64,000 bases of DNA, from NCBI GenBank assembly GCA_000182565.2, contig KQ257450.1; one strand, 5' to 3'. The notes beneath the pieces were generated by a model. The model had not been told where the DNA came from and made no database searches. It was given only the letters and a program-made list of their open reading frames with translations. Source of the DNA: Spizellomyces punctatus DAOM BR117. Lineage: Eukaryota. A program made the translations under genes and the position numbers. The first letter of the stretch is position 1. Each line of letters starts with the position of its first letter. Shown here piece by piece: positions 15,447 to 20,909 of this stretch.

Positions 15447-17948
15447 TTAGTTCCAGATCACTCCCGTCAGTGCTCGGCGATAGCTCGTCAATAAGTGATC
15501 GTCAATCATGCGTGCGTTCATGGTAATCTCTGAAAAATAGTTTGGCATGGATCGGAGCAACACATGGCGTTGTTGTTCTTGCGGAGCACTGTGGCCATCG
15601 TCGCCTTGCCCCTCGCTTTCCAAGCCATCTGCCACAGCCGTTTGAGCGCTTGGAACCACGTCGTCTTGTGGGGACCCATCTTTCCATTCTCGCAAGTAGT
15701 AGAGCATGGCAGGTGTCAGTAGCACCTTCATCTCGCCTTCATCACATGGCGCACTGCCATCGCCGGGGCTGCCCGTGCTCCGTGATGCCGTCGCTTCAAC
15801 CGATTCGGACACTGGCGCCTGCTCTACATTCGTCGCTTGGTTGCCTAAATCAATCTCCAGCTTGCGTGCTGTGTGCCGCTTCCAGCGCATGTAGCCAACT
15901 TGGCTAAAAGCTGCTATTGCGGCTGAAACGAGCGTGAATCGGAATGTGTACCGACGGAGAGCGATCCGAGAGGCATACGTCAATGTAACTGTCAGAAGCG
16001 TGGATGTTTGCCCAATGTCCTACTCAGACAGTCAGTGGAACATGTCTTCTGAAAGCCTGTATGAGCAAAACATACCTTTTTCAAATCTGTCATCCACTGC
16101 ATCAACCGGCGTCTGCATCGCTGCAGCACCGTAGGTTCGGGCGGAATGAGTCCTGCTTCCTGCAGTGACACCACAGTTTCGCCCGCAACTTCAGCGACTT
16201 GGACGACGGTTCCATGTGCAGTGGTTGCCACTGTTGCAATAGTCTCTTTGGCCGCGCTTCTGCAACAACAACAAATGCTTCAATGTTCAACTCGCCTCCT
16301 AGTACCCCGCACAAGTGCACTTACGCAACGCTCCCGACGGATCTGCGTACTGTACTGACTACCTCGCTCTCCCAAGCGCGGATCACAAAACTTGTTCTCG
16401 GATTCGCCTCCAAAGCACCGTAGACGCTTTCCATCTGCTTATGCCATGCCTCGCTCAACAGTTTTCTATGCTGATTTTCCTTGCTAAACTTTTGCAACTC
16501 TCGCAACAGCCAAATGAGATTTTTCTCGCTCAGGGCAGGTACAACATCGTAACCAAGTACAAGAGAATCGACGACTTGTTCCGCGCGGTAGGTTAGGTCT
16601 TCTGTGCATATCGCGGGAGTAGCAAAACATACACCGCGTACAGATGGGAAATGTTCTTTGTAAGGCGGGGAGGTAAGAAGTAAGGTGAGAAGGGAGGCAA
16701 TGCCAGCTCCCAGGCTGTGTCCAGTCACAATAATGTCAAAATTGGGATGAATGTGACGGAGATGAACCAGTTGCGGAAAGACGCGTTCGAGGAGCTTATG
16801 TGCAAGGTGTGACATGCCTTGATGAGCATATCCGCCAAGGAAAGGCTCACAGTCCATTTTGAGGTCAATGACTGCATCGTGTAAGCTGGCTGTCCCGCGT
16901 ATCGCAATAATGATCTATGCAATATTCGGTACATAAATATTCAATCCCTGACAGCACTCGAGAAGCCACACCCACCTTCCAGTTATTCACATCAACCGCC
17001 AAAAAGAATGCAGGACAGTCTGCACTGGATTCGTGCACAACATCAATAATCGCGTCTGAGGACCGAAGATTTGGACAGCGTTCCAATATGGTTTTCACGT
17101 CTGGATCATACGCTGCATGTGCAAAATCGATACAGTACATGAACCTGTTTTGAAGGATTAACAGCCTTGTCCAACTGACAAAATGATCGCTTGCTTTCCT
17201 CGCACCTGACTTTACCTCTCGTACGGTTCCCGCTCAGTGACACGCGGCATTTGTTTAAAGATATCCTCAGAGTCTAACGACACCTCGTCGTCAAGGCGTT
17301 TCTGGATTTGATAGTGGCAATACATTCCAATGCACAGCAGGAGCTCGCCGATATCTAATGGCGGTACCTGTACAAACGCGTGAGCAAAGTATTGGTACTT
17401 TCTTGACCCAGAAATCCATAGCTAACCTCATGTGCATTCCTAGACAATACAGTCATCAGCAACCCAGCAACATCTCGAAACATCTCCACATCAAATGGCA
17501 ACGCATTCTTGACCGCCTCTGCAACATTCTGCACTCCCGTTGTTACTGTTTCACCCACAGTCTGAACGCCCGTGACGACTGCTTGAGACGCCACGACAAC
17601 TGGTTGGGAATTGACTATTGTCTCTGCTGCGACGGACACGGTTTGCGGGACCGTTGACATTGAGACTGTGATCTGTTCCGTTAGAGATTGGGGGCGGGCC
17701 AGTGGAGGTGTTGGTAAAGAGTCGATGTAGGTTGGAAGGCGTGTGAGGTGAGAGGGTAGAAAAGCTGGTAGTGACGTGGGTCTTGGTGGAATGCTTGTGG
17801 ATGGATCGGTGTTCAATGCTGGTTGCGGTAGTGAGGAACTCTTTTGTGGCGATGGTTCGTCCGCTTCATCGAGTTGTTGAGTATCCAAAGATCCCACTAA
17901 TGGAGATCCACCAGTCCTCTTTGAGGATATCATACTGTTTGCACGCAT
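15447..17948 (-). CDS. Lipase class 3 (diacylglycerol-lipase-like), multi-exon
   Basis: AHQGM, TGHSLGAGIA nucleophile elbow, FATPA, DVVP, and C-terminal MIDDHLLTSY (catalytic His). Confidence 0.85.
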
Positions 17949-18495
17949 TACAAGTAGGTTTGTTTAAACAAAATTGGGAGAGCTGGGGCGGAAGACACGA
18001 CAGTCAGTTTATCTAAACGCTTTAGCATGATGTCATCCCTCCTGGCACGTGATCATATTGCCTGAAGATCCTTTCTCGTCTTCAAACGATGTTTAACCTT
18101 CGAGTGAAGAACAAAGGATTTTTGGAGGAAAGGTTTGAGCATTCGCAGCAAGTTTTCTGCCCACTAAAAGAATCAAAGATGGAAAGGATTGCATCCTAGG
18201 CCTAGTAATGTAGCGCTCGAGCTTATGTCCTGCCTTACATATTGTGCATAGTGCAGATGAGATCTTTGAATAATGAAGATGTGATAAAGATGCTTGGCAG
18301 ATGATACCCAAAAAACCTTTCTTAAACCTCCCATTGAAATGCTTTCAATAAAGTACGCAAATGAACAAGTCCATCGTTCGCCATAACGCGCGGCAAATAA
18401 ATTTGGGTTAGCATTTCCCCACACAAGGTTTTGACGCAAGCTTCGCAACACCTTTCCACCAACAAACGCTTTAAAGGAACGCATCTTTTATCACA

Positions 18496-19223
18496 ATGTA
18501 CGATGCAATCTTGTCTGCCCTTGGCGACGACGAAGGTATCCCCGTTGAACCCCGAACAGACTGTCCTCACGTCAAAGACGCGGTGACACCTCTCCCATCC
18601 AAACCACATATCTCAAGTACGTAAAAAGACGATTGTAACAAGACCTTACTTGTTGATTCTTTTTAACAAACTGAACCAACATTTAGTTAAAACACCCTGC
18701 ACATCCTGCCAAGATACCTCTGAAAATTGGGTATGCGTAACTTGTCACGACACGTTTTGTTCGAGGTATGTCAACCTTTTCTCGTTTATGATGATCAAAA
18801 GCAGTCAGTACCTCACAAACCATCAAAAGATTTGTACAAGGACATATGCAGGTGCATTTTGATCAAGGTGATCAGAGTTTGCGTATGCTCATTTTCGATT
18901 TGTGTAAGCTGACTGGTTTTTTTTTTTTGCAAGTCCGTCACCACATTGCGGTTAGTTACAGCGATTTATCAACCTGGTGCTACACATGCAACGACTACAT
19001 TGACGACCCGGTAATTGAAAGTTTTCTTTTTTTATTGCTGTACCATCATTCTCAAATGCGAGCATAGGCCGTCGATCCAATTCGGTCCCTTCTCCACAAG
19101 GAGAAATTTGGGGAGCCTCTTCCAGAACGAAAGCGAAACGATCAGGCTGGGTCTAGTACTCTTTTGGTCACGATGCAGGAAGCTGGAGATGCCAAAGGAA
19201 AAGGAAAAGGACGGGCAGTGTGA
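18496..19223 (+). CDS. Stand-alone ZnF-UBP (BUZ) ubiquitin-binding protein resembling the HDAC6 C-terminal finger; 4 introns
   Basis: Spliced peptide DCPHVK..PCTSCQDTSENWVCVTCHDTFCSRFVQGHMQVH..HHIAVSYSDLSTWCYTCNDYI..HKEKFGE; stop TGA at 19221-19223. Confidence 0.85.
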
Positions 19224-19434
19224 ATAGTTGGATATATATTTTTTTTTTTTGAAGAGTGGTTGCATCATGCTGACCTGTTGAGGCCTCTTGACCATTCCTG
19301 TGATGTCAACCTAATCTACCGTTGCCCGGCGCATAAGAGAAGGCATCTAACCAACCAAGAAACCGACATCACATTCATGATTCATGTATTACAGTTTGAC
19401 CAAGAATATCGGCGGCGGTATGATAAACACTATT

Positions 19435-20909
19435 CTACGCCTTTTTGGCCAAATACTCTTTCCACCACTGCTCAAATGGTACGCACGAAACATTGATTCC
19501 GATTTGCTCCAGCCGTGTAGTCGCAAGATGTGCATCGTGTGGGCGTGATGCTGCTAACAATAATGAGAAAAAGTAAGAGTATATGGGAACAATGGATACA
19601 GACCAACAGGTTCCTTTGGAGCGTCCCGCAGTGGTGTCAAATGCGAATAAGGAAGATTTGAAAGTTTTGCTATCGTTTCTGTATGAGCGTCATCAGAGTT
19701 TGAGACATTGATGCATTATCGCTAGCAAAAACTTATGATCCCAAGGAAGGCATACCGCATATACTGTATTTACTCATCTTTTCCTTGGAGCTGAAATGGT
19801 AGATTCCAGACAGCTGCTGCTTGTTCAATGCGACCTTGTCTAAATTGCGTACATGATGGAATTTAACATTTGGTGACTAAATGATCAAAGAAGCATTGAT
19901 ATGATGAATCTAACCTGCCATTTGTTTGAGGATTTTGGCCACATCAGCGACATTTGTTGGATACCGGACTTGATAGTCATCCATCGAAACTGGCGCATCC
20001 GACTTCTGTAATAAAGTAAAAGTTGTAAAAGGTCCTACATTCAAGACTGCTATTCTGGCCACACATTCCATCAATGTACCTTAATCACATCGAGGAGAAC
20101 GTTCACCGCCGATTCGCCATTATATTCCACTTCTCCGTATAGAATCGGTACGCGTAGAATCGCTGCACTTGGATTCACTCTTTGCACAGCTTCTTCTCCG
20201 GCGTACTTAGTTTGTCCTAGACAAGAGGTCTCAATCGCACGAATGGACAATACATGAATAACCCAGAAATCGGCTTCTTACCATAAAAGTTCAAGGGGTT
20301 CACCTGATCTTGAGGTTCGTAAGGAGGGTTTGTCCCGTCAAACACGTAATCGGTAGATATGTAGACTAGCCATGCGTTATTGTCCTTTGCAGCTTGGGCA
20401 AGATTCTCTGTTGCAGCAACATTGAGCTAGTTTAAAGCAAAAGGATGAGTATCTTATTATCAATGCTCTTGTGCCCTGTTCATGAACCCACCTGTTGAAC
20501 TCCCTCACGATTATTTTGTGCTACATCTGGTCGACGCTCTGCCGCGCAATGAATGATAATTTGGGGCTTTTGCTCTGCTACGAACGCCTTCACCGCTGCA
20601 AAGTCGGTAAGGTCCAACTACAAATGACGGACCATACAACATATAAGAATGCAGAGGGCTAAAAGAAACCATTAAAGAGACCCGAGAGAGCAGATCTCAC
20701 CTTTCTCAAGTCTTCTGTCGCCCTTGAATAGGCCGTTCCAACGACTGTATTATGAATGAAGAGTTACATTCCCTATGAAACCTCAACAAGGCCCATATAC
20801 ACGTACCATCATATCCTCCTTCCTTGAACGCTTTTACGACGGCGCGACCCAGTAGTCCCGAAGCGCCAGTGACGACCACACGAGGAGGGTTCGATACGAT
20901 GAGCGGCAT
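19435..20909 (-). CDS. RmlD-like NAD(P)-binding SDR (methionine adenosyltransferase II beta / dTDP-4-dehydrorhamnose reductase family), multi-exon
   Basis: VVTGASGLLG Rossmann motif, HCAAERRPD, YISTDYVFDG, YGQTK, LRVPILYG, RYPT and RPHDAHL; stop at 19435-19437. Confidence 0.88.

What the first reader, a model, noticed from the sequence alone, without database searches (positions are those of the whole stretch)
18496..19223. HDAC6-type ZnF-UBP expressed as a stand-alone mini-protein
A five-exon gene of about 150 codons, not seen intact in the ORF track, encodes only a BUZ finger. It matches the HDAC6 C-terminus through the H..KFGE end motif and has no deacetylase or USP domain; the upstream neighbour is a divergent lipase gene. 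It could be a free-ubiquitin or aggresome adaptor acting in trans, relevant to how animal HDAC6 acquired this finger by fusion (inference).
Basis: partly seen in the sequence, partly recalled or inferred. Interest (0 to 1): 0.5.

Follow-up and report, generated by a model that had tools for sequence, protein, structure and literature searches.

The report
Stand-alone HDAC6-type ubiquitin-binding zinc finger gene
This is a real, already annotated five-exon gene of a chytrid fungus that encodes only the ubiquitin-tail-binding zinc finger known from the end of animal HDAC6; such free-standing fingers are common in eukaryotes but unstudied.

Summary
Five GT..AG exons (18496-18616, 18687-18765, 18830-18867, 18934-19010, 19068-19223) give a 156-aa protein, letter for letter SPPG_00154 of Spizellomyces punctatus ('uncharacterized, UBP-type domain'). 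It is one zf-UBP finger (Pfam 5.7e-18). Its best solved relative is the HDAC6 finger (8e-26), with USP49 next at 1.8e-12. The AF2 model overlays HDAC6 fingers at about 1 A. All 12 zinc ligands are kept, and so are the ubiquitin Gly-Gly pocket residues R67, W94, Y96, Y101 and W55. No deacetylase, sirtuin or USP domain lies within about 9 kb. Small orthologues exist in three other Spizellomycetales genera and form a supported clade.

The broader reading is only partly supported. The tree backbone is unresolved. The chytrid clade lies outside the HDAC-linked/animal group. This finger type is a promiscuous module: of the 150 best library hits, 95 carry fingers only, 28 a sirtuin domain, 18 an HDAC domain, 4 ARH, 2 GGACT, 2 RING and 1 ZZ.

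The most likely function is a small reader of free ubiquitin C-termini. This is a new member of a known kind, of modest interest.

The parts
18496..18616 (+). Exon 1 (ATG at 18496; codons 1-40 plus the first base of codon 41). Holds the short N-terminal tail and the first zinc ligands C23 and H25 ('CPH').
   Evidence: donor GTACGT at 18617; the spliced product equals P0001. An in-frame stop lies 7 codons upstream of the ATG.
18687..18765 (+). Exon 2. Holds C45, C48, W55, C57, C60, C65 and the first two bases of the R67 codon.
   Evidence: Pfam zf-UBP positions 1-22 on this exon alone (E 0.0016). The acceptor is TTTAG and the donor GTATGT.
18830..18867 (+). Exon 3 (38 nt). Completes R67; holds F68, H72 and H76.
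   Evidence: R67 is invariant in 147 of 147 finger rows.
18934..19010 (+). Exon 4. Holds H82, W94, C95, Y96, C98 and Y101.
   Evidence: Pfam zf-UBP positions 37-61 on the exon 3-4 frame (3.7e-07).
19068..19223 (+). Exon 5. Holds the last helix of the finger (to K118-F119-G120-E121), a 30-residue low-confidence tail ending in a 'KGKGKG' stretch, and the stop at 19221-19223.
   Evidence: (helix 105-119; pLDDT about 55-58 beyond residue 130).
17964..18495 (.). Spacer of about 530 bp between the head of the minus-strand neighbour and the finger gene's ATG. Presumed shared divergent promoter and 5' UTR (inferred).
   Evidence: The minus-strand ORF 17358-17963 begins the neighbour; Lipase_3 lies at 16324-16914 on the minus strand. 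A few RNA reads lie on 18115-18396. No promoter test was run.

Best explanation
A genuine, independently transcribed small gene (SPPG_00154) encodes a three-zinc ZnF-UBP (BUZ/PAZ) finger of the HDAC6 type with short flexible tails. The fold forms a deep pocket lined by R67, W94, Y96, Y101 and W55. In HDAC6 this pocket clamps the free C-terminal Gly-Gly carboxylate of unanchored ubiquitin. The protein most likely acts as a small soluble reader, or buffer, of free ubiquitin C-termini such as unanchored chains. If it has partners, they would be reached through the tails: an N-terminal 'L..IL.A'-like helix and a C-terminal '..D[AS]KGKG' motif shared with orthologues.

Shown here: the gene model, the domain identity, the fold, retention of the ligands and pocket residues, the absence of a fused enzyme nearby, and conservation in Spizellomycetales.

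Inferred: ubiquitin binding itself, any adaptor role, and any partner.
For: - Gene model: the spliced product is identical to P0001, with no indel at the exon joints against human HDAC6.
- Domain: Pfam zf-UBP 5.7e-18.
- Nearest solved relatives: HDAC6 fingers at 8e-26 to 2e-23, then USP49 at 1.8e-12. The profile of 70 small fingers gives the same ranking.
- Fold: AF2 mean pLDDT 86.4, with blocks 21-120 at 94-98. Foldseek's top 12 hits are all HDAC6 fingers, at TM (target) 0.90-0.96 and rmsd 1.0-1.8 A. They include 3PHD (with ubiquitin) and 3GV4 (with the RLRGG peptide).
- Zinc ligands: all 12 present, and kept in 137-147 of 147 aligned finger rows.
- Pocket residues: passages of PMC10424181 name G1154, R1155, W1182, Y1184 and Y1189, and describe R1155A/Y1184A as binding-deficient. 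These map to S66, R67, W94, Y96 and Y101.
- Orthologues of 135-212 aa exist in Powellomyces, Geranomyces and Fimicolochytrium. They form a clade at 99/96.
- No Hist_deacetyl, SIR2 or UCH match in 133 ORFs of 60 aa or more between 8.7 and 27.8 kb.
Against: - No binding data exist.
- Y1156 of HDAC6 is F68 here and L1162 is Q74.
- Expression and splicing are not shown by reads. In the one RNA run laid (about 6 in 100 of it read), depth over the gene was 0-1.6 and no joint within the gene was listed.
- Some ZnF-UBP fingers, such as those of USP39/Sad1 and Ubp8, serve as protein-protein modules without binding ubiquitin tails (recalled knowledge, not tested here).
- Some of the 'finger-only' library proteins may be fragments of longer proteins. 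For example, the 90% cluster of the 763-aa P0051 also holds 158- and 223-aa members.
Confidence: 0.7

Rival explanations
1. The finger is a structural or protein-protein module that no longer reads ubiquitin C-termini. Under this reading it would be a scaffold subunit of some complex, as recalled for the USP39/Sad1 and Ubp8 fingers.
For: Two pocket-lining positions differ from human HDAC6 (Y1156 to F68, L1162 to Q74). Tail motifs conserved among orthologues hint at partners. No binding test was possible.
Against: The residues whose mutation abolishes binding in HDAC6 (R1155, Y1184) are kept as R67 and Y96, as are W94, Y101 and W55. R is found in 147 of 147 rows, W94 in 145 and Y101 in 144. F at position 68 is the second commonest state in the family (29 of 147).
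Confidence: 0.17
2. The five exons are the 3' end of a larger gene, for example a deacetylase, sirtuin or USP whose upstream exons were missed.
For: A few + strand RNA reads lie upstream of the ATG at 18115-18396. RNA coverage is too thin to define the 5' end.
Against: - An in-frame stop lies 7 codons before the ATG.
- The next gene upstream is on the opposite strand.
- No catalytic domain was found on either strand between 8.7 and 27.8 kb.
- Orthologues in three other genera are also 135-212 aa and begin at a homologous N-terminal stretch.
Confidence: 0.03
3. It is a decaying remnant of an ancestral HDAC6 gene, with the catalytic part lost and the finger drifting.
For: The finger is of the HDAC6 type. 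Automatic pipelines even name the Geranomyces orthologue 'Histone deacetylase 6'.
Against: The frame is intact, the splice sites are canonical and all 12 ligands and the pocket are kept. The gene is conserved as a small gene in four Spizellomycetales genera, with 48-59% identity over the finger. An origin by loss of the catalytic part long ago is not excluded, but the gene is not decaying.
Confidence: 0.03
4. It is a USP- or BRAP-type finger mislabelled as HDAC6-type.
For: All of these belong to one Pfam family (PF02148).
Against: PDB bit scores are HDAC6 86-94 against USP49 50, USP20 33, USP33 32 and Ubp8 20. The profile search gives the same order. None of the 150 best library hits carries a UCH domain. 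No USP or BRAP sequences were available to put into the tree, so this rests on score ranking and not on a rooted phylogeny.
Confidence: 0.02

Closest known systems
ZnF-UBP (BUZ/PAZ) domain at the C-terminus of animal HDAC6 (human residues about 1109-1215; PDB 3C5K, 3GV4, 3PHD, 5B8D; zebrafish 5G0F)
   Same: Same fold (TM 0.90-0.96, rmsd about 1 A) and the best sequence match (8e-26 over residues 19-125). Same 12 zinc ligands, same Gly-Gly pocket residues (R, W, Y, Y, W) and the same closing 'H..KFGE' helix.
   Different: It is not attached to any deacetylase domain and is a whole 156-aa protein with short tails of its own. F replaces Y1156 and Q replaces L1162. In the trees it lies outside the HDAC-linked/animal group.
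Stand-alone HDAC6-type zf-UBP mini-proteins of other eukaryotes
   Same: Same architecture and finger type. Examples are Geranomyces variabilis 157 aa, Powellomyces hirtus 212 aa, Fimicolochytrium jonesii 135 aa, Hyaloraphidium 182 aa, Salpingoeca helianthica 171 aa, Ramazzottius 144 aa and Selaginella 134 aa. The first three are orthologues, forming a clade at 99/96.
   Different: The animal examples nest among HDAC6 fingers and may be duplicates or fragments of HDAC6. The Selaginella sequence falls in a separate clade (99/95). I found no described function for any of them in searches.
Sirtuin (SIR2)-ZnF-UBP fusion proteins of protists
   Same: They carry the same finger type, with E 1e-22 to 1e-54 to this protein, in one or two copies at the N- or C-terminus. 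Examples are Peranema and Pyxidicula. They make up 28 of the 150 best hits.
   Different: They carry a catalytic NAD-dependent deacylase domain, which this gene lacks.
USP-type ZnF-UBP fingers (USP49, USP20, USP33, USP16, USP5/IsoT, Ubp8, USP39)
   Same: Same Pfam family and general fold. The USP5 and USP16 fingers also bind the free ubiquitin C-terminus (USP16 R84/Y117; USP5 recalled).
   Different: Similarity is much lower: 50 bits or less against 94, and TM (target) 0.46-0.73. These fingers are always part of a deubiquitinase or a pseudo-DUB.
Bacterial stand-alone ZnF-UBP protein RPA1320 (PDB 2IDA)
   Same: It is also a free-standing UBP-type finger.
   Different: The match is only marginal (E 0.21 in the profile search; Foldseek 1.1e-3, TM 0.62). 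It comes from organisms without ubiquitin.

Membership tests
Pfam zf-UBP (PF02148), ZnF-UBP/BUZ finger | Profile match above the curated cut-off (22.7 bits) | tested here: met
   65.4 bits, E 5.7e-18, residues 45-105, profile positions 1-61 of 63.
Pfam zf-UBP (PF02148), ZnF-UBP/BUZ finger | Cys/His ligand set for three zinc ions (12 ligands, as in the HDAC6 finger) | tested here: met
   C23, H25, C45, C48, C57, C60, C65, H72, H76, H82, C95 and C98 are all present and aligned to Cys/His of HDAC6. The assignment of ligands to the three sites is recalled, not computed. Metal content is not testable here.
Pfam zf-UBP (PF02148), ZnF-UBP/BUZ finger | ZnF-UBP fold | tested here: met
   AF2 model with core pLDDT 94-98. 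Foldseek to 3C5K/3PHD gives TM (target) 0.91-0.96, rmsd 1.0-1.8 A.
HDAC6-type subgroup of ZnF-UBP that binds the ubiquitin C-terminus | Closer to HDAC6 fingers than to USP fingers | tested here: met
   HDAC6 86-94 bits against USP49 50.5, USP20 32.8 and USP33 31.9. The profile gives 144-163 against 86 or less. BRAP could not be compared because no BRAP chain was matched.
HDAC6-type subgroup of ZnF-UBP that binds the ubiquitin C-terminus | Gly-Gly pocket residues (HDAC6 R1155, W1182, Y1184, Y1189; backbone of G1154) | tested here: met
   R67, W94, Y96 and Y101 are kept, and S66 stands at the G1154 position (S in 99 and G in 45 of 147 rows).
HDAC6-type subgroup of ZnF-UBP that binds the ubiquitin C-terminus | Actual binding of free ubiquitin or the RLRGG-COOH peptide | not testable with these tools
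   It needs ITC, FP or SPR.
HDAC6 (class IIb histone deacetylase), the name given automatically to orthologues | One or two Hist_deacetyl (PF00850) catalytic domains in the same protein | tested here: not met
   There is no PF00850 match in P0001 at E up to 1, nor in 133 ORFs within 8.7-27.8 kb. The labels 'Histone deacetylase 6' on the 157-aa Geranomyces and 134-aa Selaginella proteins are misnomers by this criterion.
USP deubiquitinase | UCH catalytic domain | tested here: not met
   No UCH match in P0001, in the neighbourhood or in any of the 150 best relatives.

The most novel reading that the evidence does not exclude
The chytrid finger could be the free half of a 'split' ubiquitin-sensing deacylase. 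Across eukaryotes the same finger is fused again and again to enzymes that strip modifications from lysine or act on ubiquitin: HDAC, sirtuin, ADP-ribosylglycohydrolase, gamma-glutamyl(amine) cyclotransferase-like and RING domains. In Spizellomycetales it would dock non-covalently, through its conserved N-terminal helix and C-terminal 'D[AS]KGKG' tail, onto a separately encoded deacetylase or sirtuin. That enzyme would then become responsive to unanchored ubiquitin chains in trans. This would be a living stand-in for the pre-fusion state of HDAC6-like proteins.
Probability: 0.08. Interest if true: 0.6.

Novelty: new member of a known kind. Interest (0 to 1): 0.3.

Why it matters
The HDAC6 finger is the best studied reader of unanchored ubiquitin and a drug target, but it is always discussed as part of HDAC6. 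This gene, with its orthologues and look-alikes, shows that the same finger exists as a free mini-protein in chytrids and many other eukaryotes. The finger is also at least as often fused to sirtuins as to HDAC domains.

That has three consequences:
- It corrects automatic names: 'Histone deacetylase 6' is given to 130-160-aa proteins that have no deacetylase domain.
- It offers a minimal natural domain for binding studies.
- It suggests a recurrent functional link between sensing free ubiquitin C-termini and removing lysine modifications.

For S. punctatus itself the gene is ordinary and already annotated.

Tried and rejected
- Whole-genome search for other zf-UBP or HDAC genes: no genome is held. 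The question whether the genome's Hda1/HDAC6 lacks the finger stays open.
- Word-index search for longer (fused) relatives of P0001: 310 candidates, none at E 1e-5 or better. This is weak evidence only. The 'near' search found only the protein itself and one choanoflagellate relative.
- RNA evidence: no RNA holder was listed by the index. X1-X3 are low-depth contigs colinear with the genome, introns included, so they say nothing on splicing. In the RNA run X4 (about 6 in 100 read), depth over the gene was 0-1.6 and no joint was listed inside or into the gene. It therefore gives no verdict on expression, splicing or the 5' end.
- AU test of 'chytrid + HDAC-linked fingers as one clade against sirtuin-linked ones' on the 147-row set: not finished after 576 s and abandoned. 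A careful tree of 59 hand-picked rows replaced it; its bootstrap had not fully settled (correlation 0.899).
- Complex prediction with ubiquitin: not run.
- Literature: searches found no paper on stand-alone eukaryotic ZnF-UBP proteins, on sirtuin-ZnF-UBP fusions or on HDAC6 in Spizellomyces.
- PMC10707265 (passages read) surveys HDAC catalytic domains in 26 chytrids. Its supplement could not be read, and that supplement may list the S. punctatus HDAC genes.
- Earlier notes of this scan: nothing on this genome's deacetylases or on this sequence.

Full report
**What is there.** The stretch 18496-19223 on the + strand has no long ORF. It does contain five short coding pieces bounded by canonical splice signals. 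A script joined 18496-18616, 18687-18765, 18830-18867, 18934-19010 and 19068-19223. The result is 471 nt, 156 codons plus a stop. Its translation equals, letter for letter, database protein P0001, which the sources call 'uncharacterized protein SPPG_00154 [Spizellomyces punctatus DAOM BR117]' and 'UBP-type domain-containing protein'. The introns are 70, 64, 66 and 57 nt, all GT..AG, with GC 0.34 against 0.49 in the exons. An in-frame stop lies seven codons upstream of the ATG.

**What the protein is.** Pfam gives a single zf-UBP domain (65.4 bits, 5.7e-18, residues 45-105) and nothing else above its cut-off. Among all solved structures the best matches are six HDAC6 finger sequences (E 8.4e-26 to 2e-23, covering residues 19-125). 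USP49 follows at 1.8e-12, then USP20 and USP33 at about 1e-6 and a Ubp8-type chain at 0.0055. The alignment to human HDAC6 has only two one-residue gaps, both inside exon 1, and none at an exon junction. The invariant arginine R67 is encoded across the exon 2/3 junction. Homology therefore independently validates the splice model.

**Fold.** An AlphaFold2 model built on an alignment of 70 small relatives has mean pLDDT 86.4. The 10-residue blocks covering residues 21-120 score 94-98, and the two tails (residues 1-10 and beyond about 130) score only 55-58. In Foldseek its twelve best matches are all HDAC6 fingers (TM by target 0.90-0.96, rmsd 1.0-1.8 A). They include the complexes with ubiquitin (3PHD) and with the RLRGG peptide (3GV4). 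USP49 is next.

**Functional residues.** Passages of PMC10424181 say the following about the HDAC6 pocket:
- R1155 and W1182 sandwich the ligand.
- G1154, Y1184 and R1155 hydrogen-bond the carboxylate that mimics ubiquitin's C-terminus.
- Y1189 lines a side pocket.
- R1155A/Y1184A is binding-deficient.

Adding 1106 to the chain position reproduces these residue numbers in the aligned PDB chain. The equivalents here are S66, R67, W94, Y96 and Y101, with W55 opposite W1143.

I extracted 147 finger rows from the relatives. Among them R67 is R in 147 rows, W94 is W in 145, Y101 is Y in 144, Y96 is Y in 119 and W55 is W in 139. The twelve Cys/His positions are each kept in 137-147 rows, and all twelve are present here. 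Two pocket-lining positions differ from human HDAC6. F68 replaces Y1156 (F in 29 and Y in 96 of 147 rows). Q74 replaces L1162, which is a variable column. The sequence therefore has everything known to be needed to grip a free ubiquitin C-terminus. Binding itself remains inferred.

**Is it really stand-alone?** Five lines of evidence say yes:
- The upstream neighbour is on the opposite strand. Lipase_3 lies at 16324-16914 on the minus strand (2.1e-18), and further minus-strand ORFs run up to 17963.
- The downstream neighbour is also on the minus strand (RmlD_sub_bind at 20074-20426). RNA reads show its poly(A) end at 19369 and its last intron at 19551-19603 (29 reads).
- Of 133 ORFs of 60 aa or more on both strands between 8.7 and 27.8 kb, none matches Hist_deacetyl, SIR2 or UCH.
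- The in-frame stop just before the ATG argues against a simple upstream extension.
- The closest relatives are also small: Powellomyces hirtus 212 aa, Geranomyces variabilis 157 and 176 aa, Fimicolochytrium jonesii 135 aa, and more distantly Hyaloraphidium curvatum 182 aa.

Three of those genera share the N-terminal '..L..IL.A..' stretch, and three share a C-terminal '..D[AS]KGKG..' motif. RNA evidence could not add to this. In the one RNA run laid (about 6 in 100 of it read), depth over the gene was 0-1.6 and no joint was listed.

**The wider family.** A full HMMER scan of 1.84 billion representative proteins found 1447 hits at E 1e-3 or better, 726 at 1e-10 and 16 at 1e-30. I scanned all 150 listed hits against Pfam (58, 92) and transcribed the labels by hand for the tally:

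| Architecture | Hits (of 150) |
|---|---|
| zf-UBP only | 95 |
| SIR2 (sirtuin) domain | 28 |
| Hist_deacetyl domain(s) | 18 |
| ADP-ribosylglycohydrolase | 4 |
| GGACT/AIG2-like domain | 2 |
| RING finger | 2 |
| ZZ finger | 1 |
| UCH domain | 0 |

The 95 finger-only proteins split into 76 with one finger, 16 with two, 2 with three and 1 with four. The 76 single-finger proteins have a median length of 159 aa; 54 are 200 aa or shorter, and 71 start with M.

Source names were looked up for 30 of the 150. Free fingers occur in:
- a choanoflagellate (Salpingoeca helianthica);
- a tardigrade, a mealybug, a spittlebug, a nematode, a sea slug, a centipede and a bivalve;
- Selaginella;
- an amoebozoan (Clastostelium) and a heterolobosean.

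A three-finger protein occurs in Paratrimastix. Sirtuin fusions occur in Peranema and Pyxidicula, and an ARH fusion in Rhodelphis.

The ESM Atlas lists 17 clusters of finger-only proteins of about 150-170 aa among its 30 nearest. The three best have 66-115 members, mostly from streptophytes, and one is auto-named 'histone deacetylase 6 isoform X1'.

One caveat applies. Some finger-only entries are probably fragments. The 90% cluster of the 763-aa HDAC-finger protein P0051 also contains 158- and 223-aa members, and the cluster of the 175-aa P0024 contains a 374-aa member.

**Phylogeny.** The quick tree of 147 finger rows used 110 columns. It groups the six Spizellomycetales rows at SH-aLRT 93 and puts 16 of the 17 HDAC-linked rows in a 44-row group (92). 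The backbone is left open.

The careful tree used 59 rows chosen by hand, with 88 rows left out. I kept all rows with a known organism, 15 of the 17 HDAC-linked rows, 17 of the 30 sirtuin-linked rows and all ARH, GGACT, RING and ZZ rows. It shows the following:
- The five Spizellomycetales rows form a clade at 99/96.
- 14 of the 15 HDAC-linked rows, together with the six animal free fingers, form a 20-row group at 87/79.
- The chytrid clade lies outside that group.
- The split between the two halves of the tree has support of only 49/81.
- Hyaloraphidium did not join the Spizellomycetales clade.
- The bootstrap had not fully converged (correlation 0.899).

No USP or BRAP sequences were available as rows. 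'Not USP/BRAP type' therefore rests on score ranking and on the absence of UCH among the 150 best hits. An AU test on the large set did not finish.

**Reading.** The gene is a conserved, free-standing HDAC6-type ubiquitin-tail reader. It most likely binds unanchored ubiquitin C-termini, and the disordered tails may link it to partners (about 0.7). The main rival is a ubiquitin-independent scaffold role (about 0.17). Fusion to missed upstream exons, decay and a USP/BRAP affinity are each unlikely.

The finger is a mobile module that has been joined many times to enzymes acting on modified lysines or on ubiquitin, and the trees do not single out the chytrid gene as the HDAC6 finger's sister. The recurrent partners (HDAC, sirtuin, ARH, GGACT-like, RING) are a 'Rosetta stone' hint that sensing free ubiquitin ends is coupled to removal of lysine modifications. 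This is inference only.

**Comparison and novelty.** The closest known entity is the HDAC6 ZnF-UBP. By membership the protein is a zf-UBP finger of the HDAC6 type; profile, ligands, fold and pocket were all tested and met. It is not an HDAC6, because it has no deacetylase domain. The automatic 'Histone deacetylase 6' labels on its orthologues are therefore misnomers.

I found no paper on free eukaryotic fingers of this type or on sirtuin-finger fusions. That library lacks most subscription journals. The supplement of PMC10707265, which may list the chytrid HDAC genes, could not be read.

**Verdict.** This is a new, already annotated member of a known kind, of modest interest (0.3).

Noticed in passing
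P0004-P0145 (library proteins, not in the window): The HDAC6-type finger is fused to sirtuin (SIR2) domains in 28 of the 150 best hits, at the N- or C-terminus and often in tandem pairs. It is also fused to ADP-ribosylglycohydrolase (4), GGACT/AIG2-like (2), RING (2) and ZZ (1) domains. I found no paper on the sirtuin fusion in searches.
   Followed up: partly
P0012/P0153/P0154 (Geranomyces), P0060 (Selaginella), P0032 (Aphelenchus), P0158 (Planococcus): Finger-only proteins of 133-192 aa are named 'Histone deacetylase 6', 'histone deacetylase 6-like' or 'histone deacetylase hda2' by their sources, although they have no deacetylase domain.
   Followed up: yes
window 19128-19220 (C-terminal tail of the protein); P0011, P0012, P0020: A 'D[AS]KGKG' motif ends the proteins of Spizellomyces, Powellomyces and Geranomyces, and a 'DKGKGK' stretch begins the Hyaloraphidium protein. 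It lies in the low-confidence tail, and its role is unknown.
   Followed up: no
window 18868-18933: Intron 3 is 66 nt, in frame and free of stops. Its retention would insert 22 residues into the middle of the finger. This is why the ORF 18795-19067 reads through exons 3 and 4.
   Followed up: partly
window 19369-19665, minus strand: This is the 3' end of the convergent neighbour, an RmlD_sub_bind-type gene. Poly(A) addition at 19369 is shown by T-run loose ends. The last intron, 19551-19603, is supported by 29 reads. Depth reaches about 120, far above the finger gene. The two genes' 3' ends lie within about 150 bp of each other and may overlap.
   Followed up: partly
window 18906-18908 and 19229, minus-sense reads: Read ends pile up just beside the T-runs at 18915-18929 and 19241-19252. 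This looks like oligo-dT priming on A-runs of read-through antisense RNA from the downstream gene. That reading is inferred.
   Followed up: no
window 16141-17127 and 18115-18396, + sense reads: In run X4, first mates on the + strand cover the body of the minus-strand lipase gene (depth up to 7) and the spacer upstream of the finger gene (up to 3). These may be antisense or 5'-UTR transcripts, or the library's strand rule may differ from my reading.
   Followed up: no
window 17358-17963, minus strand: The presumed first exon of the lipase-class-3 neighbour is a Ser/Pro/Thr-rich low-complexity stretch of about 200 aa with no Pfam match.
   Followed up: no
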